Sequence record: LC739533.1
Length of the DNA: 64,000 bases
From: Escherichia phage phiWec179
Reading direction: 5' to 3' (one strand)
Position 1 is the first letter of the stretch, and every line of letters begins with the position of its first letter. Below the pieces are notes generated by a model. That model saw nothing but the letters and a program-made list of their open reading frames with translations. It was not told the origin of the DNA and ran no database searches. This document shows, piece after piece, positions 1,948-44,163 of this stretch. Position numbers and translations under genes: made by a program.

Positions 1948-3015
1948 TTGACTACCATGATCCGCCTTGCTACACTGTATTTATTAACTAAGGAGGAAAT
2001 TATGGGCGTGATTAAAGGTTGGGACATTCAGAAGAAAGAATGTGAAGAAGTGGCAAGACCAGGTATTACTGTTCTTGGATTTGTTGAACCGTGGAATGGT
2101 GCACATACCAAACTGATGCTGAAATGTGAGAAGCATGGGGAATGGAATACAACCTCCATCAACAACTTCAAAAAGAATGGTTCTGGTTGTAATGGTTGTA
2201 GAGCGGATATATGTGGTGCAAGAGCAGAAGGGAATAGCTTTGCAAGTAAAAATGCTATCTCAGATGAGCAACACATTAAGGATTTCTTGGCTACCGGATT
2301 GTTTGCAGAGGGGACAACCTTCGTCAATACAGGTGTGAAAACAAAAGGTAATCACAACTGCGTGTGGAAAGTAAGTTGCCCTGTTTGTGCTGTGGATGTA
2401 TATTCTCAAGCTGGTTTATGTGATGGTAGTTTTGAAGGTCTGACTACACACCTTAAGGCTGGAAAGGTTCCTTGTCGTTGCTCTCCACGTCATTGCTATT
2501 CTAAAGACCAATGGTTGTTTAGATTTCAGTTAATGTGTGAAGAAAAAGGTTATACTTTCATCAAGGCCATCTACGAAGGGGAAGCATACTCTCATGGAGA
2601 TGTTGAGTATGCTTGTCCAGAACACGGCTCACAACGCATGACTGTGAAGAACCTCATGTCAGGTAAAGGTTGTCCAGAGTGTGCCAATAAAACACAACAG
2701 TTCTGTTATATCAATGAAGTGTATGATGAAGATAATAATCTCTGCGCTCTTAAATTTGGAATTGCCAATGATGCTGAACGTAGGATCAAAGGTCAGAACT
2801 CGAAGAATGCTTTCACAATGCAACAGAAAGCTGTCTACTTCTTTGATGATATCAAGTCGTGTCGAGCAGCAGAAAGGAAGTGTTTGAAGATGTTGAAGTG
2901 CGGTGTTGTGAATAAATTTCAATTGCAGGATGGACACACAGAAACAACCCATCTGGACAATTACGAAATTATTGAGGCTATTTACGAAAGTTTTGGAGGG
3001 GTGTTACAGAAATGA
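1948..3015 (+). CDS. Cys-rich zinc-ribbon protein with C-terminal T5orf172/GIY-YIG-like domain
   Basis: Repeated C-x-x-C/C-P-E-H-G/C-P-E-C pairs; C-terminal LKFGIANDAERRIKG resembles the KIGxT..RL core of T5orf172 domain; opposite strand to surrounding tail genes. Confidence 0.45.
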   Translation: MTTMIRLATLYLLTKEEIMGVIKGWDIQKKECEEVARPGITVLGFVEPWNGAHTKLMLKCEKHGEWNTTSINNFKKNGSGCNGCRADICGARAEGNSFASKNAISDEQHIKDFLATGLFAEGTTFVNTGVKTKGNHNCVWKVSCPVCAVDVYSQAGLCDGSFEGLTTHLKAGKVPCRCSPRHCYSKDQWLFRFQLMCEEKGYTFIKAIYEGEAYSHGDVEYACPEHGSQRMTVKNLMSGKGCPECANKTQQFCYINEVYDEDNNLCALKFGIANDAERRIKGQNSKNAFTMQQKAVYFFDDIKSCRAAERKCLKMLKCGVVNKFQLQDGHTETTHLDNYEIIEAIYESFGGVLQK

Positions 3016-3040
3016 AAAAAGGGGCCGAAGCCCCTTTCTT
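3015..3040. terminator. Bidirectional rho-independent terminator between convergent genes
   Basis: A-run, GGGGC-CGAA-GCCCC hairpin, T-run; reads as terminator on both strands. Confidence 0.6.
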
Positions 3041-4994
3041 AGTTACCACCAGATTGTCCACTTAAAGTAGCTAAAGTTAAACGGTTGAAAACATTGTTAC
3101 CACTGTTCTGAATACGAGCATCCAACATATTACCAAACTCCGAAGACGGGTTGATTGTTACGTTGATCAGATCACTCGGAATAGCAATCGTGTTTTCTAC
3201 AATAGGTTGGTTACGAGCCAGATTAACGTTTGGCGTATAAGCTGTTTCACGCAAATTCTCTAAAGGATTCCCGAAACCGAAAGCATGTGTTCGAGTTTCT
3301 TCTCCTCGGAACATTCTTCCAACGTCTTGAGTATCAATTCCAGTCCACTTATAAAGGAAGTCGGCTACTGGGTTGGTATCTCCTGATTGTGTTGCGGCGT
3401 ACAATTTGTCCGGTATAGTTTTATTAGGATCAGAATCCGGTCCGAAGATAGATGGTAAGTTTGTCACTAACCATTTATTAATATCTTCCGTGATACCGAT
3501 AATCTCTGTACCAAACTTAGCAACATTCAGTGTGGCATTTGCAAACTCCACCCCAAGATTCTTGGCAAAATTGTCCAAAGATTTAACGTTATCTAACCAA
3601 GATTCGTCTTTAGGTATTGCACTCATAAATCCTTCCAGGAAATAGTTCTGCATCCCTTGACCAACCAAACCTATTGTTGCAGTTAAACGTGTGTACTGTT
3701 TAGAAGCTTCCATTTGCTCATTAGTCAATGCAGCACCAGTACGTTGAAGCATACGGAGGGTTTCTTGGAAGCCTTCTCCGTTCTTGCTAAACATACGTTG
3801 GTAATGCATGAGGTCATCTCCAAGGTTCTCAAGAAGACGACCAATCTGTGCCGAGTTCATGCCGCGACGCTCACCTTCATTCACAGTTGCCTGGATGAAA
3901 GCTAACGGATCGTTCTGCATGTGCTTAATTTGCGAAGGGTTCCAGCCGAACATGTTCATGATATCGTTGATACCGTTGTCCCCGCCACGCCATTTTCCTT
4001 TCTTCTCGTCCCATTCAGAAGCCATCATCGAGTTACCTAAACGTTCACGAACGTCTTTAAGGTTATCGATTGACTTGATAATGTTTGCCGAGTCAACACC
4101 GTTCTGTTCACCCCAAGCAGTCATTGTCATAATGGCGTTGGCGTTTGCCTGAACGTTCTCTGCACCACGACCTACAAACTTGATACGATCATTAGCATTT
4201 TGCAAAGTGTTCCCTACAACAGAGCCACCTGCAAATAACCCTGCACCGATCATAGAAGAAACCATCATACGAGGGTTAAGACCTAAAGCACCATCTCGCA
4301 TTTGGGAATACTTACGTTCCTTATCTCGACGTTGTTGTGCCAATTCTCGTTTATGGTTACGTTCAATATCGCGCAACTCTTTATCACGCATACGTTGACG
4401 TTGCTTGGCTTCTGCTTCCAGTTCTCGACGAATCCTACGGCGACCACGAACCTCATCCTCAATATCTTTCGTTTTTTCTCTGTGGGATTTACGAAGGTTA
4501 TCAAGCTGATGGGCCAGAGTTTGGTTCATACGTTGAAGAGTGATATCTCCACGTTTGTATGATTCTACAGAGGCATCCATGATTTGTTTTGCTTGGCGTT
4601 GTGCATCTATGGAAGCTTTGGTATATTGCATACCACGCTTCTCAAAATTCTCCATGCGGAGGTTGCCTAAATCGTTACGACGAGCTTGGAGTTCTGCTGC
4701 GCGTTCTTCTGGTGTTTTCTTACCTGGTTTCGTTGGACGACCAGGACCGGAGGTAGTTCCACCACCTTTTGGAGCAGAAGGGGGAGCAGGGCGAGCAGGG
4801 AAAGTCTGCGCTTTACGCATTTCTCTTTCGATCTCTTTCATCTGCTGCCTAAATTTACTCATGTTTAAGGTAGGTTGGATTTTTTCAGCGAACCTTTTAA
4901 TACTTTCGACAGAATCTTTGGCCTCTTTGAGACTGTTCTTGTCCACCTTAAATGTGACTACGTTACTGATTTTTGAGGCATTAATATCTAACAA
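3039..4994 (-). CDS. Tail tape measure protein (tentative)
   Basis: 651 aa, long charged coiled-coil region (REK-rich), Gly/Ala-rich segment; sits immediately downstream of frameshifted chaperone pair. Confidence 0.45.
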   Translation of the reverse strand: MLDINASKISNVVTFKVDKNSLKEAKDSVESIKRFAEKIQPTLNMSKFRQQMKEIEREMRKAQTFPARPAPPSAPKGGGTTSGPGRPTKPGKKTPEERAAELQARRNDLGNLRMENFEKRGMQYTKASIDAQRQAKQIMDASVESYKRGDITLQRMNQTLAHQLDNLRKSHREKTKDIEDEVRGRRRIRRELEAEAKQRQRMRDKELRDIERNHKRELAQQRRDKERKYSQMRDGALGLNPRMMVSSMIGAGLFAGGSVVGNTLQNANDRIKFVGRGAENVQANANAIMTMTAWGEQNGVDSANIIKSIDNLKDVRERLGNSMMASEWDEKKGKWRGGDNGINDIMNMFGWNPSQIKHMQNDPLAFIQATVNEGERRGMNSAQIGRLLENLGDDLMHYQRMFSKNGEGFQETLRMLQRTGAALTNEQMEASKQYTRLTATIGLVGQGMQNYFLEGFMSAIPKDESWLDNVKSLDNFAKNLGVEFANATLNVAKFGTEIIGITEDINKWLVTNLPSIFGPDSDPNKTIPDKLYAATQSGDTNPVADFLYKWTGIDTQDVGRMFRGEETRTHAFGFGNPLENLRETAYTPNVNLARNQPIVENTIAIPSDLINVTINPSSEFGNMLDARIQNSGNNVFNRLTLATLSGQSGGN

Positions 4995-5008
4995 AGTATT
5001 TCCTCCTG

Positions 5009-5257
5009 TTAGTGTATCATTTTCTTAAACATGTCTTGCATTTGAGAAGCGTTCTCTTGTTGCTTTCTCTTTATTGAAGTGTCTTTGCTGTACAGAGCTT
5101 CGATATAATCCTCATAGGTGAGGTACTCGTACATTCCTAACAGATAATCCACCCCGTATTGATCCAGGGTGGAGCGTGTTTCCGAGGTATTCTTCACAAC
5201 CTTGCAGAGAATGATCTCATACCACTTCAACGTAAGAGTCTTCTCTGCGGTTTCCAT
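5009..5257 (-). CDS. Tail assembly chaperone, frameshift extension (T part of G-T fusion)
   Basis: ORF in -1 frame relative to 5278-5760; its frame stays open upstream across the end of the preceding gene up to a slippery heptamer. Confidence 0.45.
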   Translation of the reverse strand: METAEKTLTLKWYEIILCKVVKNTSETRSTLDQYGVDYLLGMYEYLTYEDYIEALYSKDTSIKRKQQENASQMQDMFKKMIH

Positions 5258-5277
5258 CGCGTGACGAATGGCTGGAC

Positions 5278-5760
5278 TTAGTTCGTTGCCAGATCCTGAA
5301 CCGCTTGGAACTGGGTCAACAGTTTTCCGAAACCTCGTTTGAAAAAAGGGCCATAGTTCACCTCAAGAACTTTTGCTGTCAAGTCGAGGACAAGTTCTGG
5401 GTGAGCAAAGAAGAGTTCATCGAAGTTATCAGATACATTATGTCCTGCTTCGGTATATACTTCGTCTAAGATCTTACGGAGGAACACGGTAAGGTTCTTC
5501 TCTTCAAGACCAGAGAACAATTGAATAAGTGCCATTGCAATACGAGATTCCAGATCTTCATCAGCCGACATAAGGGCGGTATTGTACATGGTCATAGGTA
5601 CAGCTAAAACGCTACCGAGTTCTGGAATACGTTCGAAGACCTTTGAAGGACTCCACTTCAGAATACGGAAGGTTACGAAACGGGTTTCATCCAAGTAAAT
5701 TTTTACGATTTCTTCTGGACGTGCATATTGTTTGATAGTATCGTCTTGTTGTTCTGACAT
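5278..5760 (-). CDS. Tail assembly chaperone (G-like)
   Basis: 160 aa ORF between tube and tape measure candidates; contains in-frame slippery site near 3' end. Confidence 0.5.
   Translation of the reverse strand: MSEQQDDTIKQYARPEEIVKIYLDETRFVTFRILKWSPSKVFERIPELGSVLAVPMTMYNTALMSADEDLESRIAMALIQLFSGLEEKNLTVFLRKILDEVYTEAGHNVSDNFDELFFAHPELVLDLTAKVLEVNYGPFFKRGFGKLLTQFQAVQDLATN
5341..5347 (-). other. -1 programmed ribosomal frameshift slippery heptamer T_TTT_TTC
   Basis: Minus-strand sequence ggC_CCT_TTT_TTC_aaa in zero frame of chaperone gene; -1 frame then runs without stops into ORF 5009-5257. Confidence 0.5.
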
Positions 5761-5780
5761 AGTTTCCTCTCTTTTTAGTT

Positions 5781-5806
5781 AAATAAAAAGGGCATTTCTG
5801 CCCTTT
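5781..5806 (-). terminator. Rho-independent terminator after tail tube gene
   Basis: Hairpin GGGCA-GAAA-TGCCC followed by T-run on minus strand. Confidence 0.6.
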
Positions 5807-5811
5807 CGTTA

Positions 5812-6291
5812 TTATTGAATGGTCAGTGCAGAGATAGAGTTAAGAACACTCATACCTACACCAACTTCATTACGTAACAGGCTTGCATCTTTCAGACCGA
5901 TAACCCATTGGTTCTCTGTAATCATTTCGCCCATGGTGTCTTCAGGTTGAGACTGAATCCAACCAATGGTGCTAATGTAATAGCCACGAGGATCTTCCAG
6001 ATAAACGCTGAATGCTACTTGACGAGTAGAATACATTGTTTGAGCATAAGTTGCAAGAACTTCGTTCGCTGGAGATGTACGTTGCAGAGAAATAGTCATG
6101 GTGCCGAGACGGTTGCGGCTAAGAGCCAGAGAAACATCGCCATCAGTACCAGCATATGGGTTAATAATATCGTTGGCTTTTGCGATTACAATTTTAGTGT
6201 CGGTTGCAAAACCCCACGGCTCCCATCCACCCAGGGACAGAACGATTTGGGAAGGATCATAGGCCATTACGCCAGTAAGCATTTTATCCAA
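5812..6291 (-). CDS. Tail tube protein (tentative)
   Basis: 159 aa ORF downstream of sheath candidate, followed by strong terminator; size and position typical of contractile-tail tube. Confidence 0.5.
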   Translation of the reverse strand: MDKMLTGVMAYDPSQIVLSLGGWEPWGFATDTKIVIAKANDIINPYAGTDGDVSLALSRNRLGTMTISLQRTSPANEVLATYAQTMYSTRQVAFSVYLEDPRGYYISTIGWIQSQPEDTMGEMITENQWVIGLKDASLLRNEVGVGMSVLNSISALTIQ

Positions 6292-6337
6292 TTTGGATCT
6301 CCTTTAGGGATAAGGCGAGGTTGCCCCCGCCAAATTA

Positions 6338-7711
6338 TTAGTTTGCAGTACGGTTGGTCAGGACGTGAACCTGAACCTTAACGTAATGGAAGAATCCTGC
6401 GTAAACGTATTCAATCTTCATGCCGTCAACCAGACGCTGATTAATCTGCGAATCAGTCATGTCAGCACGAGAAGGAAGGTAAACGATAGGCTTCAGGTCA
6501 ACACGCAGTCCAGTTTCTTCTGAAACAACCACTTCGTTAGAAATAGAACCGTTCAGAATACCAACTTGGATCGGGTTAGCCAGAACCGCTTGTTTAATCA
6601 GAGCCAGACCATTGGAAGTAGCACGAACACCACCACCCAACATTGACTGCTGTTTGAACAGAGTGAACAGAGATTCTTCGGTACGAGCTTTGAACCACAG
6701 AGCGTGAACTACGTAGTCAGCAAAGAAACCGTTAACCATCAGACCATCGCGGTAGAACAGAGTTGCGTGTTCTTTACGGTAGATGTTACCATTCTGTTGA
6801 ACAATGTTATTTTCCGCAGTCTGACCAAGCTTCTCGATTTCAACTCCAACCAGAGTTTTACCGTGTAGAGTGGTAGTACCAGGCTGTGCAGAGCAGATAG
6901 AACCAACTACGGCAGCTTCTGGGAATACAGAGTCCGCGTCGCTCATCCACAAGGCGAAACAGGTGTTGACGTAACCGAGGTCATTCAAACGCTCAAGAAC
7001 GTTGTCTTCGGCTTTAGTAGTGATACCAACGTCTGAACTGGAGAAGAAGTATACTTTATCATTCTCTTCTACCCAAGCAGCTACATCAAGAATATCTTCA
7101 ACAGCGTGGGAGTCAGACAGAACCCAGAACCAGCTACTATCGATATCGTGCAGAGCGGCGATATCTTCGGTAATGCCGTTAGCGTAGACGGTTTCTTTAG
7201 CGAAGCCGTTTGCATCCAGAGAAGCGTATTTGCCTACAACTGGAGAAACAGTGATCACAGCACCATCGTTAGCAACGGTAAACAGACCACCATAAACTAC
7301 GTCTGCATTGATCATTTCTGTCAGACCAACAACGATTTCTTGTGCTGTTGCAGTGTCGTCAGCAATGAATTTGAAATCTTTCTTGTTCTTGCCTTCTTTG
7401 ATAGTGACAACATATGTTGCACTGTCTTCAACTGCTGGGGTCAGGGTAAAGTTTGTTACTTCACGCTTACCAACAATCACTTGACTTGGTGCGAATAATC
7501 CGTTAAACAGTTTAACTGCCATGATATAGGCTGGATCATTAACACCGTAACCCGCTTCCAGAAGTGCGTCAGAAGAGGTGTAATATTCAATCGCGTTACC
7601 AGTGACAGTCTGACCAGTAAGGATCAGGGGAATGTCAAACTGGGTTTCACGGATTGATGTAGCTCCGTACAGTAAAGTTACGGTTGCTACCTTTTCACGA
7701 AAAGTTGCCAT
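6338..7711 (-). CDS. Tail sheath protein (tentative)
   Basis: 457 aa ORF preceding tube gene; size and order as in P2/Mu-like sheath-tube-chaperone-TMP modules. Confidence 0.5.
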   Translation of the reverse strand: MATFREKVATVTLLYGATSIRETQFDIPLILTGQTVTGNAIEYYTSSDALLEAGYGVNDPAYIMAVKLFNGLFAPSQVIVGKREVTNFTLTPAVEDSATYVVTIKEGKNKKDFKFIADDTATAQEIVVGLTEMINADVVYGGLFTVANDGAVITVSPVVGKYASLDANGFAKETVYANGITEDIAALHDIDSSWFWVLSDSHAVEDILDVAAWVEENDKVYFFSSSDVGITTKAEDNVLERLNDLGYVNTCFALWMSDADSVFPEAAVVGSICSAQPGTTTLHGKTLVGVEIEKLGQTAENNIVQQNGNIYRKEHATLFYRDGLMVNGFFADYVVHALWFKARTEESLFTLFKQQSMLGGGVRATSNGLALIKQAVLANPIQVGILNGSISNEVVVSEETGLRVDLKPIVYLPSRADMTDSQINQRLVDGMKIEYVYAGFFHYVKVQVHVLTNRTAN

Positions 7712-7744
7712 TTATGCTCCTGTTAGAAACTTATTCCAATGAAT

Positions 7745-8443
7745 TTATTCGTTGGGGTTGTTAAATAATGATCCATCATCAGTTACTGGTGAGTATTCGC
7801 CATTAACCTCATGAACTACGTAAATTCTATCCAGAGTTAAATCCAGAGGTGTGGGATCATTGTAGCTATCTCTGAATGATCGAATATGCATGTTGACAGC
7901 CTCTATAGGGGTTGTCATAATATCCTCAATACTCATACGAGTGTTGAAGGTCATAATCATACGCGCTCTAACTTCAGTCTTATCTCCATCCAGAACTGTG
8001 TTTGCCTGTGTGATATTTGTTGCTGACAGGAAACCCATCCCTTTGGAATAGAGATGCTTGTATTTTAATTCCTCTGCACCACGTAGAGCAGCCAGAACAT
8101 AGCTCAACAGAGTAGTAGGTCTTCCACGGAAAGCCATGAGTTCAATCTCATAGGTATTGTCCATCTCGTAGGAAAACATGTCTTGCTCTATTTTGCCTCG
8201 GTAAGACCACCCACCAGAATCACTGGAGGTGATAATACGTAGTGCCAGGTATGGATTGGTAGGTTGGACGAACGGTTTGTCCATCACGTAAATTGGCAAT
8301 CCAGTTAATTCTTGAAGGAAACTACCTATATTAAGATAGATAGCGTTCTCATACGCTTCGATTTGTTCGTAGATATTAGCCAAAGTTTCCTCCCTCTTGA
8401 TCGTAATCCCATGTATTGTTTTGATCGTCCAATATGGCGACAC
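7745..8443 (-). CDS. Hypothetical virion (neck/tail) protein
   Basis: 232 aa ORF in late block; start overlaps upstream gene, true start may be internal. Confidence 0.4.
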   Translation of the reverse strand: MSPYWTIKTIHGITIKREETLANIYEQIEAYENAIYLNIGSFLQELTGLPIYVMDKPFVQPTNPYLALRIITSSDSGGWSYRGKIEQDMFSYEMDNTYEIELMAFRGRPTTLLSYVLAALRGAEELKYKHLYSKGMGFLSATNITQANTVLDGDKTEVRARMIMTFNTRMSIEDIMTTPIEAVNMHIRSFRDSYNDPTPLDLTLDRIYVVHEVNGEYSPVTDDGSLFNNPNE

Positions 8444-42283: not shown

Positions 42284-43276
42284 ATGCGCTATCTGGTAAC
42301 AGGTGGTCTTGGTTTTATTGGGAGCGCCGTTGTGCGCTCTCTTTGTCAAGATCCTAATAACGAAGTTTTTGTCATTGATAAAATGGGCTACGCAGCCGAT
42401 ATTGAAAATGTAGGGGATATCACTCACGCCAAACTAAGCATGACGGATTTGGCAAACGAAGCACAGGTCAAAAGTTTGGTGGTAGAATGCAACCCTGATT
42501 TCATTATTCACTTAGCGGCAGAGAGTCATGTGGACAACTCTATCAAAAATCCACGAGCTTTCATCGACTCCAATATCATCGGTACATATAATTTACTGGA
42601 AGCTGCGAGACTACTCCCAAGGAATAAGCTGAAGATGTTTGTACACGTCTCCACAGACGAAGTGTACGGCGATATGGCAGACTCTGGCGCTCCCTTTACC
42701 GAAGAGACAGCATATACTCCTTCAAGCCCGTACAGCGCGTCCAAGGCGGCTTCTGATCATCTTGTGAAAGCTTGGCACCGTACTTATGACTTGCCTGTAG
42801 TGATAACTAATTGCTCCAATAATTTTGGACCTTACCAATACCCTGAAAAATTGATTCCAAAAGTAATCACAAGCATCTTGACGAACAAAGAAATCCCAGT
42901 GTATGGTAAAGGTGATCAGGTACGAGACTGGCTTTTTGTTGAGGACCATGCACGAGCTATTCTTCAGGTAGCTTCTGGCGGCGAACCTGGACAAACTTAC
43001 AACGTAGGTACACGTAATCCTAAAACCAATATGGAGATCATCTATATGATTTGTGATTACATGGATGCCGTACACCCGCAAAGTGGAACCTACCCCTCTT
43101 CAAGTTTAATAACTTTTGTTGAAGATCGTAAAGGACATGACTTGCATTATGAAATCAACCCTGCTAAGATTGAATCTGAACTGGGTTGGAGTGCAAACTC
43201 CACATTTGAACAAGACCTTTACTCTACGATAGAGTGGTATTTAAACAACCCTCAATGGTGGAGAGAAAAGATTTAA
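42284..43276 (+). CDS. rmlB: dTDP-glucose 4,6-dehydratase
   Basis: TGGLGFIGS Rossmann motif, [10 protein letters not shown] (YxxxK) catalytic motif. Confidence 0.85.
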
Positions 43277-43284
43277 GGAGGGTT

Positions 43285-44163
43285 ATGAAAGGTATTATTT
43301 TGGCTGGAGGAAGTGGAACCCGCCTACATCCAGTAACACGCAGTGTGAGCAAGCAATTGCTCCCTGTGTATGACAAACCTATGATTTATTATCCTTTATC
43401 AGTCTTGATGTTGGCAGATATTAAGGATATCTTAATCATCACAACCCCAGGCGATCAGGAAGATTTTGAGTATCTTCTTGGAGATGGATCTATGTTTGGG
43501 ATAAAGATCACTTACGCAATGCAGTCTGAACCACGAGGTCTTGCAGATGCTTTCATCATTGGTAAAGATTTCATTGGGGAAGATTCTGTTGCCCTTATTT
43601 TAGGGGATAACTTGTTCTTCGGACAAAGTTTCGGAAAACTTCTTATCCAAGCCAGCGAAATGGTGGATGTTTGGGGTGGAGCTTGTATCTTCGGGTATCT
43701 GGTGAAAGATCCTGAACGATTCGGTGTTGTTGAGTTTGGAAGTAATCGCCAAGCTATCTCTATTGAAGAGAAACCGGAACATCCTAAATCAGACTATGCT
43801 GTCACGGGTTTGTATTTCTATGACAACTCTGTTGTTCAACGTGCATTGGAAGTAACCCCTTCCGAGCGTGGAGAACTGGAGATCACAGATATCAATCGCA
43901 GCTACCTCGAAGACAGGAAGTTACAAGTTGAAGTTCTTGGAAGAGGATTCACTTGGTTGGATACAGGGACACACGCCAGTCTAATGGAAGCAGGTCAATT
44001 CGTGCAGACTATTGAGAACTGCCAAGGATTGAAGATTGCGTGCCTGGAAGAGATCGCTTTCAAAAAAGGGTGGATTTCTTTAGAGACTTTGGTGTATCAT
44101 GGCAACTCATTGAAGAAAACAGAGTACGGGCAATATTTGTTAAAATTAGCGGAGGGTAAATGA
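43285..44163 (+). CDS. rmlA: Glucose-1-phosphate thymidylyltransferase
   Basis: [17 protein letters not shown] signature; start set to ATG 43285 after RBS AAGGAGGG. Confidence 0.85.

What the first reader, a model, noticed from the sequence alone, without database searches (positions are those of the whole stretch)
5009..5760. Programmed -1 frameshift joining the two tail chaperone ORFs
The chaperone gene contains the slippery heptamer T_TTT_TTC (minus strand, 5341-5347) in its zero frame. The -1 frame from that point is open for about 110 codons and runs straight into the next ORF (5009-5257). This is the conserved G/GT arrangement upstream of tape measure genes and supports the tail-module assignments made by position.
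Basis: seen in the sequence. Interest (0 to 1): 0.45.

Follow-up and report, generated by a model that had tools for sequence, protein, structure and literature searches.

The report
Tail chaperone G/GT programmed −1 frameshift
This E. coli phage almost certainly makes a second, longer tail-assembly chaperone by letting a few ribosomes slip back one base on TTTTTTC; this is a well-known phage trick, but it is unannotated in the records examined for this phage group.

Summary
The window is Escherichia phage phiWec181/186 (Phapecoctavirus).

On the minus strand the gene order is sheath, tube, chaperone G (5278-5760), small ORF T (5009-5257), tape measure. T_TTT_TTC (5347-5341) sits in the X_XXY_YYZ register at G codons 138-140. 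From base 5341 the −1 frame runs 110 codons to the T stop, predicting a 250-aa GT fusion.

In 65 of 66 related loci (52 distinct G sequences, G down to ~25% identity):
- The identical heptamer is in register.
- The preceding codon always ends in T, although it encodes Pro, Cys or Ser.
- The −1 frame is always open.

Synonymous variation collapses exactly at the site. T's ATG has no Shine-Dalgarno and is not conserved, and 6 of 13 isolates have no start codon ahead of the conserved T domain.

No downstream stimulatory RNA structure exists. An upstream SD-like GAGGTG is a possible stimulator.

No examined record or database protein carries the fusion. A homologous frameshift was proposed in 2025 for sister families. 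This is a new member of a known kind. It is useful for annotation but not surprising, and it has not been shown experimentally.

The parts
5278..5760 (-). Gene G (TAC-N): tail assembly chaperone, 160 aa, the product of standard zero-frame decoding
5341..5347 (-). Slippery heptamer T_TTT_TTC: P-site TTT (Phe139), A-site TTC (Phe140)
   Evidence: Register verified. Identical and in register in 65 of 66 related loci, 52 distinct G sequences. Synonymous difference is 0.00 at both Phe codons. U_UU.C is the second-best A-site slip tetramer in E. coli (PMC4066793).
5341..5350 (-). Extended slippery 10-mer C_CCT_TTT_TTC: two overlapping in-register heptamers that give the same product
   Evidence: The 10-mer is present in Stephanstirmvirinae. 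Vequintavirinae have only T_TTT_TTC (TGT/TCT/AGT TTT TTC). Pseudaeromonas phage KLEP7 has only C_CCT_TTT.
5009..5341 (-). −1 frame segment translated after the shift (T part of GT, 110 codons plus stop): RFR motif, Gly/Ser-rich linker, helical T domain
   Evidence: translation. (alignment of T parts from 15 genomes, conserved ...RFR......SLxW[YF]...). PHROG 16039 E 3.7e-36. AF2 gives a low-confidence linker at 141-162 and a helical domain at 163-249 with pLDDT 84-91.
5009..5257 (-). ORF 'T' as called by gene finders (82 aa, BDU12521.1). Best read as the 3' part of GT rather than a free-standing gene.
   Evidence: Annotated as a separate hypothetical protein. Its ATG has no SD: −0.1 kcal/mol against −6.6 to −10.3 for the four neighbouring genes. 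The ATG aligns with I/S/L/T in relatives. 6 of 13 isolates have no ATG/GTG/TTG before the conserved T motif.
5278..5340 (-). Dual-coding overlap: the C-terminal 20 codons of G in frame 0, and the start of the T part in frame −1
   Evidence: Stop-free in the −1 frame in all 52 distinct sequences, although the expectation from the G protein sequence alone is a median 0.14 per sequence. Both frames are conserved at the protein level.
5359..5364 (-). SD-like GAGGTG, 11 nt upstream of the heptamer: candidate 5' stimulator (dnaX-like). Inferred only.
   Evidence: Anti-SD duplex −6.9 kcal/mol in the window. At or below −6 kcal/mol in 73% of 52 sequences against 7% of other stretches of the same genes. 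It is absent in CR9, KNP2 and ChuuTotoro, and it is confounded by conserved Leu-Glu-Val codons.
5328..5334 (-). Conserved GGTTTCG, 6 nt after the heptamer (Gly-Phe in frame 0, Arg-Phe-Arg in frame −1). Role unresolved.
   Evidence: Synonymous difference is 0.04 and 0.01 at codons 143-144. It is conserved even in Pseudomonas phage KPP10. No base-paired structure is predicted.
3039..4994 (-). Tape measure protein gene (651 aa, TTG start with AGGAGG SD), immediately downstream of T
   Evidence: PHROG 16051 E 1e-296. SD −10.3 kcal/mol.
5812..6291 (-). Tail tube-like structural protein gene, immediately upstream of G
   Evidence: PHROG 280 E 7.6e-35; Pfam KPP10_Orf10.
6338..7711 (-). Tail sheath gene
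   Evidence: PHROG 205 'tail sheath' E 7.4e-92.

Best explanation
Most ribosomes translating gene G terminate at TAA 5280-5278 and make the 160-aa chaperone G.

A minority slip back one base when tRNA-Phe occupies both the P site (UUU, 5346-5344) and the A site (UUC, 5343-5341). The tRNAs re-pair on U_UU and U_UU. The equivalent slip one codon earlier on C_CCU_UUU gives the same product. Decoding resumes at CAA (5341-5339) in the −1 frame and continues to TAA 5011-5009. The result is a 250-aa GT protein with three parts: the G domain (residues 1-140), an RFR motif with a Gly/Ser linker (141-162), and a helical T domain (163-249).

By analogy with lambda gpG/gpGT, many copies of G and a few of GT would coat the tape measure protein, and the T domain would recruit tube subunits. 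The fixed slip frequency would set the G:GT ratio.

Shown here: the sequence geometry, its conservation, the selection on the nucleotides of the heptamer, the dual coding, and the lack of a conserved independent start for T.

Inferred: that the shift is ribosomal, its efficiency, the stimulator (possibly the upstream SD-like GAGGTG), and the assembly role.
For: - Geometry was verified.
- G is a Pfam Phage_TAC_15 member sitting between the tube and tape measure genes.
- T_TTT_TTC is in register at the homologous ...NYG(P/C/S)FF... position in 65 of 66 loci. These span Stephanstirmvirinae, Vequintavirinae and IMG/VR contigs. The 66th locus has C_CCT_TTT in register.
- The codon before Phe-Phe is CCT, TGT, TCT or AGT. 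That is three amino acids, always ending in T, which is what P-site re-pairing requires. Neighbouring Gly, Tyr and Val codons vary freely.
- The synonymous-difference fraction falls from ~0.55 to 0.14-0.21 over G codons 133-147, centred on the heptamer.
- The −1 frame is open for 83-149 codons in every locus. The expectation from the G protein sequence alone is a median 0.14 per sequence for the overlap. The +1 frame is closed.
- The T domain is conserved, with PHROG 16039 and the LxW[YF] motif. However, T's ATG lacks an SD, is not conserved, and 6 of 13 isolates have no start codon upstream of the conserved motif.
- The AF2 model places the slip site at the end of the last G helix, followed by a disordered linker and a separate T domain.
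- The homologous junction in KPP10 belongs to a family for which a conserved −1 PRF was argued independently (PMC12846349).
- U_UU.C and all-pyrimidine heptamers are shift-prone in E. coli (PMC4066793).
Against: - There is no experimental evidence: no peptide, reporter or ribosome-profiling data.
- No downstream stimulatory structure exists. Folding z-scores are ~0 for 60-100 nt and RNAalifold predicts 0 pairs.
- In E. coli reporters, heptamers without stimulators gave only 2-10 times a ~0.05% background (PMC4066793). Efficiency may therefore be low unless something stimulates the shift.
- The upstream SD-like element is not universal.
- In this particular phage T has an in-frame ATG 20 nt after the G stop. 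Some independent or re-initiated T synthesis cannot be excluded here.
- The comparative sample is partly ascertained through a peptide pattern that contains FF.
- The related sequences are not phylogenetically independent.
Confidence: 0.85

Rival explanations
1. Transcriptional slippage. RNA polymerase stutters on the T6 run and adds one extra U to a fraction of mRNAs. Standard translation of those mRNAs then yields the same GT fusion.
For: The site is a homopolymer run. From my own knowledge of its title, a paper I could not access (Vladimirov et al. [quoted passage not shown] The protein product would be identical, so none of the comparative data on the open frame or the T domain discriminate between the two mechanisms.
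Against: - The run is only T6 in all 65 loci, T5 in KLEP7 and T5 in KPP10. From my own knowledge, productive slippage by E. coli RNA polymerase typically needs about 8-9 identical bases or an adjacent nascent-RNA hairpin.
- No hairpin lies upstream of the run (z 0.02).
- Selection keeps the A-site codon as TTC in 52 of 52 sequences rather than lengthening the run to T7.
- In KLEP7 the slippery motif has moved by one codon but keeps the X_XXY_YYZ register. That matters for ribosomes but not for polymerase.
Confidence: 0.07
2. T is an independent gene. It is translated only from its own ATG at 5257, perhaps by termination-reinitiation after the G stop 20 nt upstream. On this view the heptamer is incidental.
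For: Every examined GenBank/RefSeq record that annotates T lists it as a separate CDS. The window does have an in-frame ATG close to the G stop.
Against: - The ATG has no SD: −0.1 kcal/mol, and 65% of random positions are as strong or stronger.
- It aligns with non-Met residues in relatives.
- In phAPEC8, PD06, KNP2, pEa55, CR9 and ChuuTotoro there is no ATG/GTG/TTG between the slip site and the conserved T motif.
- The conserved T sequence starts upstream of the ATG.
- This model does not explain the always-open −1 frame across the overlap, the invariant heptamer codon choice or the synonymous-site trough.
Confidence: 0.05
3. Artefact. G and T are one ordinary gene, and a homopolymer sequencing error in the T run splits it. 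Alternatively, the arrangement is a chance coincidence.
For: Homopolymer runs are error-prone on some sequencing platforms.
Against: - Exactly T6 is found in 65 loci from many laboratories, platforms and metagenomes.
- The zero-frame tail of G after the site is itself conserved as protein and ends at a conserved stop.
- The chance expectation is low.
Confidence: 0.01

Closest known systems
Phage lambda gpG/gpGT −1 programmed frameshift, and the conserved G/GT arrangement of long-tailed phages (Levin et al. 1993; Xu, Hendrix & Duda 2004, 2013, 2014; as summarised in PMC5009743)
   Same: Two overlapping ORFs lie between the major tail/tube gene and the tape measure gene. The downstream ORF is in the −1 frame and has no reliable start of its own. 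An X_XXY_YYZ heptamer sits near the 3' end of G. No downstream stimulatory structure is required. The predicted products are a short abundant G and a rare long GT.
   Different: - The heptamer is T_TTT_TTC (tRNA-Phe/tRNA-Phe) rather than G_GGA_AAG (tRNA-Gly/tRNA-Lys).
- The host phage is a ~154 kb lytic myovirus with a contractile tail.
- G belongs to a different sequence family (Phage_TAC_15).
- Frameshifting and function are experimentally shown for lambda but not here.
TAC-N/TAC-NC −1 PRF with a 'GTTTTT' motif proposed for Vandenendeviridae (Pakpunavirus and relatives) and Andersonviridae (PMC12846349, Dec 2025)
   Same: The junction is homologous. KPP10 gp013/ORF14 aligns as ...LNFGSVF|SSTRFRR... 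against ...VNYGPFF|QTRFRK..., with the same downstream GGTTTCG and a Gly/Ser linker. The layout is also the same, with a small 'hypothetical protein' ORF routinely mis-annotated between TAC and tape measure. That paper names Vequintavirinae and Stephanstirmvirinae as related clades.
   Different: - In the passages I read, that paper reports the frameshift test only for Vandenendeviridae and Andersonviridae, not for Stephanstirmvirinae or Vequintavirinae.
- The KPP10 site is G_GTT_TTT, which allows only A-site re-pairing.
- The window's clade has a perfect tandem-slippage heptamer, and a double one in Stephanstirmvirinae.
Myovirus G/GT equivalents, P2 gpE/gpE+E' (own knowledge; the higher efficiency in P2-like phages is noted in PMC5009743)
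   Same: A contractile-tail phage with a sheath, tube, chaperone, frameshift-extension, tape measure gene order, and a T-rich slippery run.
   Different: There is no detectable sequence relationship. P2 frameshifting has been measured; this one has not.
E. coli dnaX −1 frameshift (A_AAA_AAG with a 5' SD-like element and a 3' stem-loop)
   Same: There is a possible SD-like stimulator, GAGGTG, 11 nt upstream of the heptamer. From my own knowledge this spacing is similar to dnaX.
   Different: There is no 3' stem-loop. The SD-like element is not conserved in all relatives. The outcome also differs: here the shift gives a C-terminal extension, whereas in dnaX it gives early termination.

Membership tests
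G/GT-type tail assembly chaperone −1 PRF (lambda paradigm) | The gene pair lies between the tail tube (major tail) gene and the tape measure gene | tested here: met
   Order on the minus strand is sheath 6338-7711, tube 5812-6291, G 5278-5760, T 5009-5257, TMP 3039-4994.
G/GT-type tail assembly chaperone −1 PRF (lambda paradigm) | The downstream ORF overlaps the 3' end of G in the −1 frame, and that frame is open from the shift site to the end of T | tested here: met
   The −1 frame is open for 117 codons from G codon 133 to TAA 5011-5009. It is open in all 66 related loci.
G/GT-type tail assembly chaperone −1 PRF (lambda paradigm) | A slippery X_XXY_YYZ heptamer in the zero frame within the overlap window | tested here: met
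   T_TTT_TTC at 5347-5341, plus the overlapping C_CCT_TTT.
G/GT-type tail assembly chaperone −1 PRF (lambda paradigm) | The frameshift architecture is conserved in diverged relatives despite low protein identity | tested here: met
   65 of 66 loci have the identical heptamer in register, with G identity down to ~25%. There is a synonymous-site trough at the site.
G/GT-type tail assembly chaperone −1 PRF (lambda paradigm) | The T segment has no dependable independent translation start | tested here: met
   There is no SD at ATG 5257. The ATG is not conserved. 6 of 13 isolates have no start codon before the conserved T motif.
G/GT-type tail assembly chaperone −1 PRF (lambda paradigm) | G is a tail assembly chaperone by sequence family | tested here: met
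   Pfam PF21822 Phage_TAC_15, 81.6 bits against a cut-off of 22. PHROG 3840, 1613, 1688 and 11820 are all 'tail assembly chaperone'.
G/GT-type tail assembly chaperone −1 PRF (lambda paradigm) | G has the fold of solved tail assembly chaperones | tested here: inconclusive
G/GT-type tail assembly chaperone −1 PRF (lambda paradigm) | A GT fusion protein is actually produced at a low, fixed ratio to G and is needed for tail assembly | not testable with these tools
   This needs mass spectrometry, reporters or genetics. No fused protein of about 250 aa appears among the 44 database homologues, which are all ~160 aa.
Vandenendeviridae/Andersonviridae TAC-N/TAC-NC −1 PRF (PMC12846349) | A homologous TAC junction with −1 continuation into the 'hypothetical protein' ORF | tested here: met
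   The KPP10 gp013/ORF14 junction aligns with the window's, including RFR and GGTTTCG. The tube protein hits the KPP10_Orf10 family.
Vandenendeviridae/Andersonviridae TAC-N/TAC-NC −1 PRF (PMC12846349) | An invariant GTTTTT motif at the shift site | tested here: not met
   The window has CCCTTTTTTC, with no G before the T run. Vequintavirinae relatives do have TGTTTTTTC. The motif here is a canonical heptamer instead.
dnaX-type stimulated −1 PRF | A 3' stem-loop or pseudoknot 5-9 nt after the heptamer | tested here: not met
   Fold z-scores are +0.13 and −0.21 for 60 and 100 nt. RNAalifold predicts 0 pairs across 13 relatives. There is no Rfam match.
dnaX-type stimulated −1 PRF | A 5' SD-like element about 10 nt upstream | tested here: inconclusive
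   GAGGTG lies 11 nt upstream at −6.9 kcal/mol. The element is enriched (73% against 7%), but it is absent in some lineages and is confounded by conserved codons.
Programmed transcriptional slippage site | A long homopolymer (about 8-9 or more), or a shorter run preceded by a nascent-RNA hairpin | tested here: not met
   The run is T6 in 65 loci and T5 in KLEP7 and KPP10. There is no upstream hairpin. The length criterion is from my own knowledge.

The most novel reading that the evidence does not exclude
The synonymous-site trough extends past the heptamer to an almost invariant GGUUUCG, 6-9 nt downstream. This element is retained even in the distantly related Pseudomonas phage KPP10. Together with the enriched upstream SD-like element, it could be a previously undescribed, structure-free frameshift stimulator. 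It might act by pairing with rRNA, or through the nascent or incoming Arg-Phe-Arg / Gly-Phe sequence. That would set the G:GT ratio across several families of large myoviruses. The alternative is that the conservation is simply a by-product of dual coding.
Probability: 0.12. Interest if true: 0.5.

Novelty: new member of a known kind. Interest (0 to 1): 0.25.

Why it matters
The biology is textbook. G/GT frameshifting is one of the most widespread recoding events in tailed phages.

The practical value is in annotation:
- At least 359 deposited phage genomes carry this TAC family, including the rV5-, phi92-, phAPEC8- and PVP-SE1-like groups, many of them phage-therapy candidates.
- None of the 18 records examined, which include RefSeq entries, annotates the fusion.
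- Several records call T a free-standing 'hypothetical protein' with arbitrary starts, or omit it entirely.

The finding also confirms the positional assignment of the tail module. It extends the recently proposed TAC frameshift of Vandenendeviridae and Andersonviridae to two further subfamilies, and shows these carry a canonical heptamer where KPP10 has a degenerate one.

Tried and rejected
- Downstream stimulatory stem-loop or pseudoknot. Single-sequence folds of 37-100 nt are indistinguishable from shuffles. The 140-nt fold has z −2.1, but that comes from a helix beginning about 90 nt downstream. RNAalifold on 13 relatives predicts no pairs. Rejected.
- Rfam scan of 4900-5900. The only hit is a sub-threshold snoRNA match, which is chance.
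- Hairpin-assisted transcriptional slippage. There is no hairpin upstream of the T run.
- A second frameshift candidate, T_TTA_AAC at ~43.24 kb with a 305-codon −1 extension. It is an ordinary overlap between an RmlB-like dehydratase gene and an RmlA-like nucleotidyltransferase gene. The latter has its own AAGGAGG RBS and ATG at 43285. Rejected.
- Sequence search of the GT fusion against PDB found nothing. Foldseek against PDB found nothing significant.
- Prior reports of the frameshift in this clade. The rV5 genome/proteome paper does not mention 'frameshift', 'chaperone' or 'tape measure'. Searches on phAPEC8/frameshift and Stephanstirmvirinae/Vequintavirinae/frameshift found only the 2025 Adele paper, which treats sister families.
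- The Vladimirov et al. 2022 paper on T4-like TACs could not be read.
- A first attempt to find motif-specific values for U_UUU_UUC in Sharma et al. by text search failed. The relevant general rules were read from the Results sections instead.
Full report
**Identity of the window.** Bases 3000-7800 are 100% identical to Escherichia phage phiWec181 and phiWec186 (LC739534/5). These are 154.5-kb members of Stephanstirmvirinae, genus Phapecoctavirus. The region is ~80% identical to phAPEC8 over the sheath-to-chaperone portion.

**Tail module on the minus strand.**
- Tail sheath: 6338-7711 (PHROG 205).
- Tube-like structural protein: 5812-6291 (PHROG 280; Pfam KPP10_Orf10).
- G: 5278-5760 (Pfam Phage_TAC_15, E 9e-23, 81.6 bits against a cut-off of 22; PHROG 3840 'tail assembly chaperone').
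- ORF T: 5009-5257 (PHROG 16039, unknown function).
- Tape measure: 3039-4994 (PHROG 16051, E 1e-296).

**Checking the observation.** G starts at ATG 5760, so the codons at the site are CCT(5349-5347) TTT(5346-5344) TTC(5343-5341). T_TTT_TTC at 5347-5341 is therefore exactly in the X_XXY_YYZ register.
- Re-reading C5341 gives CAA ACG AGG TTT CGG ..., which stays open for 110 codons to TAA 5011-5009.
- That frame contains the ATG of the T ORF (5341-5257 = 84 nt).
- The −1 frame is open only from G codon 133, and G stops after codon 160. Any shift must therefore fall in a 28-codon window.
- The only in-register heptamers in that window are T_TTT_TTC and the overlapping C_CCT_TTT. Both yield the same 250-aa product...EVNYGPFF|QTRFRKTVDPVPSGSGSGNELSPAIRHAMETAEK....
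- The +1 frame closes after 32 codons.

**Is it more than chance?** In a crude set of 91 genes from the window there are 39 in-register XXXYYYZ heptamers. Only 0.6% of in-gene positions have a −1 frame open for 110 or more codons. The only other heptamer with a long −1 extension lies at ~43.24 kb. It is an ordinary overlap of an RmlB-like gene and an RmlA-like gene, and the second has its own AAGGAGG RBS and ATG.

**Comparative evidence: the sample.** A tblastn search with the predicted fusion found 359 phage records. In 256 of them the match covers at least 80% of the query, as two pieces in different frames. I examined 66 loci in total:
- 17 isolate loci spanning Phapecoctavirus, Justusliebigvirus, an unclassified Stephanstirmvirinae member, Vequintavirus, Avunavirus, Seunavirus, Mydovirus, Henunavirus, Certrevirus and unclassified phages;
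- 49 IMG/VR loci.

**Comparative evidence: the results.**
- In 65 of the 66 loci (52 distinct G nucleotide sequences) the identical T_TTT_TTC sits in register at the homologous ...NYG(P/C/S)FF... position. The exception, Pseudaeromonas phage KLEP7, has C_CCT_TTT in register one codon upstream.
- The residue preceding Phe-Phe varies between Pro, Cys and Ser. Its codon is always CCT, TGT, TCT or AGT, so it always ends in T. That is what re-pairing of the P-site tRNA-Phe on UUU requires. Adjacent Gly (GGC/GGA/GGT/GGG), Tyr (TAC/TAT) and Val/Ile codons vary freely.
- A codon-aware scan shows the fraction of synonymous differences falling from ~0.55 over most of G to 0.14-0.21 over codons 133-147. 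It is 0.00-0.01 at codons 138-140, and it returns to ~0.5 afterwards.
- The −1 frame is open for 83-149 codons in every locus. Synonymous resampling of the G tail gives a median probability of only 0.14 per sequence that the overlap would be stop-free by accident.

One of the two peptide patterns used to collect IMG/VR loci contains FF. This biases the sample toward Phe-Phe, but not toward a particular codon choice, register or open frame. The sequences are also related by descent, so these counts are not independent trials.

**T is not a conserved free-standing gene.**
- The −1-frame translations align along their whole length: an RFR motif right after the site, a Gly/Ser-rich linker, then a conserved domain (...A..A.K..SLxW[YF]...).
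- The window's ATG 5257 aligns with Ile, Ser, Leu or Thr elsewhere.
- Its upstream region pairs with the anti-SD at only −0.1 kcal/mol, against −6.6 to −10.3 for the sheath, tube, G and tape measure starts.
- In phAPEC8, PD06, KNP2, pEa55, CR9 and ChuuTotoro no ATG, GTG or TTG exists in that frame between the slip site and the conserved motif.
- Deposited records reflect this. T is called with inconsistent starts, or not at all (ESCO5, nepoznato, KNP2). None of the 18 records inspected carries a joined CDS.
- All 44 database homologues of the fusion are ~160-aa G-only proteins.

**Structure.** An AlphaFold2 model of GT built from 26 predicted fusions has mean pLDDT 80 and pTM 0.68.
- The G domain's last helix (122-140) ends exactly at Phe140.
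- A low-confidence linker follows (141-162).
- A separate helical T domain spans 163-249, with pLDDT 84-91.
- Foldseek against PDB found nothing significant.

Fold-level membership is therefore suggestive but not conclusive. Sequence-family membership (Pfam) is clear.

**Stimulators.**
- The 60 and 100 nt downstream of the heptamer fold no better than shuffles (z +0.13 and −0.21).
- RNAalifold predicts no conserved pair across 13 relatives, and Rfam has no match. From my own knowledge, this is also true of lambda G/GT.
- Upstream, GAGGTG (5364-5359) lies 11 nt from the heptamer and pairs with the anti-SD at −6.9 kcal/mol. Such an element at or below −6 kcal/mol is present in 73% of the 52 sequences, against 7% of other stretches of the same genes. 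It overlaps conserved Leu-Glu-Val codons and is missing in CR9, KNP2 and ChuuTotoro, so it is only a candidate.
- Downstream, GGTTTCG (5334-5328) is nearly invariant. It is retained in Pseudomonas phage KPP10. It encodes Gly-Phe in frame 0 and Arg-Phe-Arg in frame −1, so dual coding is the simplest explanation. A direct role is not excluded.

**Mechanism and rivals.** Sharma et al. (PMC4066793) report several relevant rules for E. coli. U_UU.C is the second most shift-prone A-site tetramer. UUN and AAN codons and all-pyrimidine X/Z heptamers are the more shift-prone motifs. The best motifs allow cognate A-site re-pairing. T_TTT_TTC fits all three. They also show that motifs without stimulators reach only 2-10 times a ~0.05% background, so efficiency here is uncertain.

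- Transcriptional slippage would give the same protein. It is disfavoured because the run is only T6 (T5 in KLEP7 and KPP10). The A-site codon is kept as TTC in 52 of 52 sequences rather than extending the run. No hairpin precedes the run. KLEP7 also preserves the ribosomal register after moving the motif by a codon.
- Independent translation of T is disfavoured by the start-codon and SD evidence above.
- A sequencing artefact is excluded by 65 concordant loci and a conserved zero-frame G tail.

**Comparison with what is known.** This is the G/GT arrangement of Levin et al. 1993 and Xu et al. 2004 (as summarised in PMC5009743), found here in a large lytic myovirus. The nearest specific precedent is a December 2025 paper (PMC12846349). 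It argues, also purely bioinformatically, for a conserved −1 PRF with an invariant GTTTTT motif in the TAC genes of Vandenendeviridae and Andersonviridae. It names Vequintavirinae and Stephanstirmvirinae as related clades but, in the passages I read, does not report the frameshift test for them.

I confirmed the homology directly. KPP10 gp013/ORF14 has ...LNFGSVF|SSTRFRR... with the same GGTTTCG. Its site is G_GTT_TTT, which supports only A-site re-pairing. The window's clade has a perfect heptamer, and Stephanstirmvirinae have a double one. The rV5 genome/proteome paper does not mention a frameshift.

**Verdict.** It is a new, unannotated member of a very well-known kind. It is of modest interest, mainly for correcting annotation across several hundred phage genomes, and it still awaits direct protein-level proof.

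Noticed in passing
window 5780-5807 (minus strand), between the tube stop (5812-5814) and the G start (5760): A strong hairpin, GAAAGGGCA-GAAA-UGCCCUUUU, followed by UAUUUA. It folds at −13 kcal/mol with z −4.6 and looks like an intrinsic terminator. The phAPEC8 record annotates an ARNold terminator at the same place. It may attenuate transcription so that G/GT and tape measure are made at lower levels than sheath and tube.
   Followed up: partly
window 42284-44163 (+ strand): The phage encodes an RmlB-like sugar-nucleotide 4,6-dehydratase (Pfam GDP_Man_Dehyd/Epimerase) and an RmlA-like nucleotidyltransferase (NTP_transferase). They overlap in the −1 frame. An in-register T_TTA_AAC near the end of the first gene is coincidental, because the second gene has its own AAGGAGG RBS and an ATG at 43285.
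   Followed up: yes
window 5328-5334 (minus strand); L067 (KPP10) about 8026-8032: GGTTTCG lies 6-9 nt downstream of the slip site and is almost invariant from E. coli phages to Pseudomonas phage KPP10. It encodes Gly-Phe in frame 0 and Arg-Phe-Arg in frame −1. Whether this is a dual-coding constraint or a cis-acting element is unresolved.
   Followed up: partly
window 5359-5364 (minus strand): An SD-like GAGGTG lies 11 nt upstream of the heptamer. It is enriched in relatives (73% against 7% background) but is not universal. It is a possible dnaX-like 5' stimulator.
   Followed up: partly
L002 (OR584014.1, 'Pseudomonas phage PsgM04F'); MG0656xx 'Campylobacter phage' records: A phage labelled as infecting Pseudomonas coronafaciens is 96.8% identical to this E. 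coli Phapecoctavirus over 4.8 kb. Several records labelled Campylobacter phage carry Phapecoctavirus- or Vequintavirus-type tail modules. The host labels look doubtful.
   Followed up: no
L005 (NC_052658.1, phage nepoznato) 1402-1940: Where relatives start their tape measure gene, this record annotates a 1317-nt 'endonuclease' CDS. It could be a mis-annotation, or an endonuclease inserted at or in the tape measure gene.
   Followed up: no
window 4994 (TMP start); L002 4440: The tape measure ORF starts at TTG 4994, with the strongest SD in the module (AGGAGG, −10.3 kcal/mol). The PsgM04F record annotates a start 133 nt further downstream, probably truncating the protein.
   Followed up: no
window 3015-3040 and 5148-5173 (minus strand): A strong terminator-like hairpin, AAGAAAGGGGCTTCGGCCCCTTTTTT, lies right after the tape measure gene. 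A 9-bp GC-rich hairpin inside the T coding region was also flagged by the terminator scan. It is ~170 nt from the slip site, too far to act as a frameshift stimulator.
   Followed up: no
L065 (IMGVR_UViG_3300046535_001080): This is a GC-rich distant relative. It keeps T_TTT_TTC in register but has a much shorter −1 extension (69 codons after the site) and a longer, Ser/Ala-rich zero-frame G tail. It looks like a divergent GT variant.
   Followed up: partly
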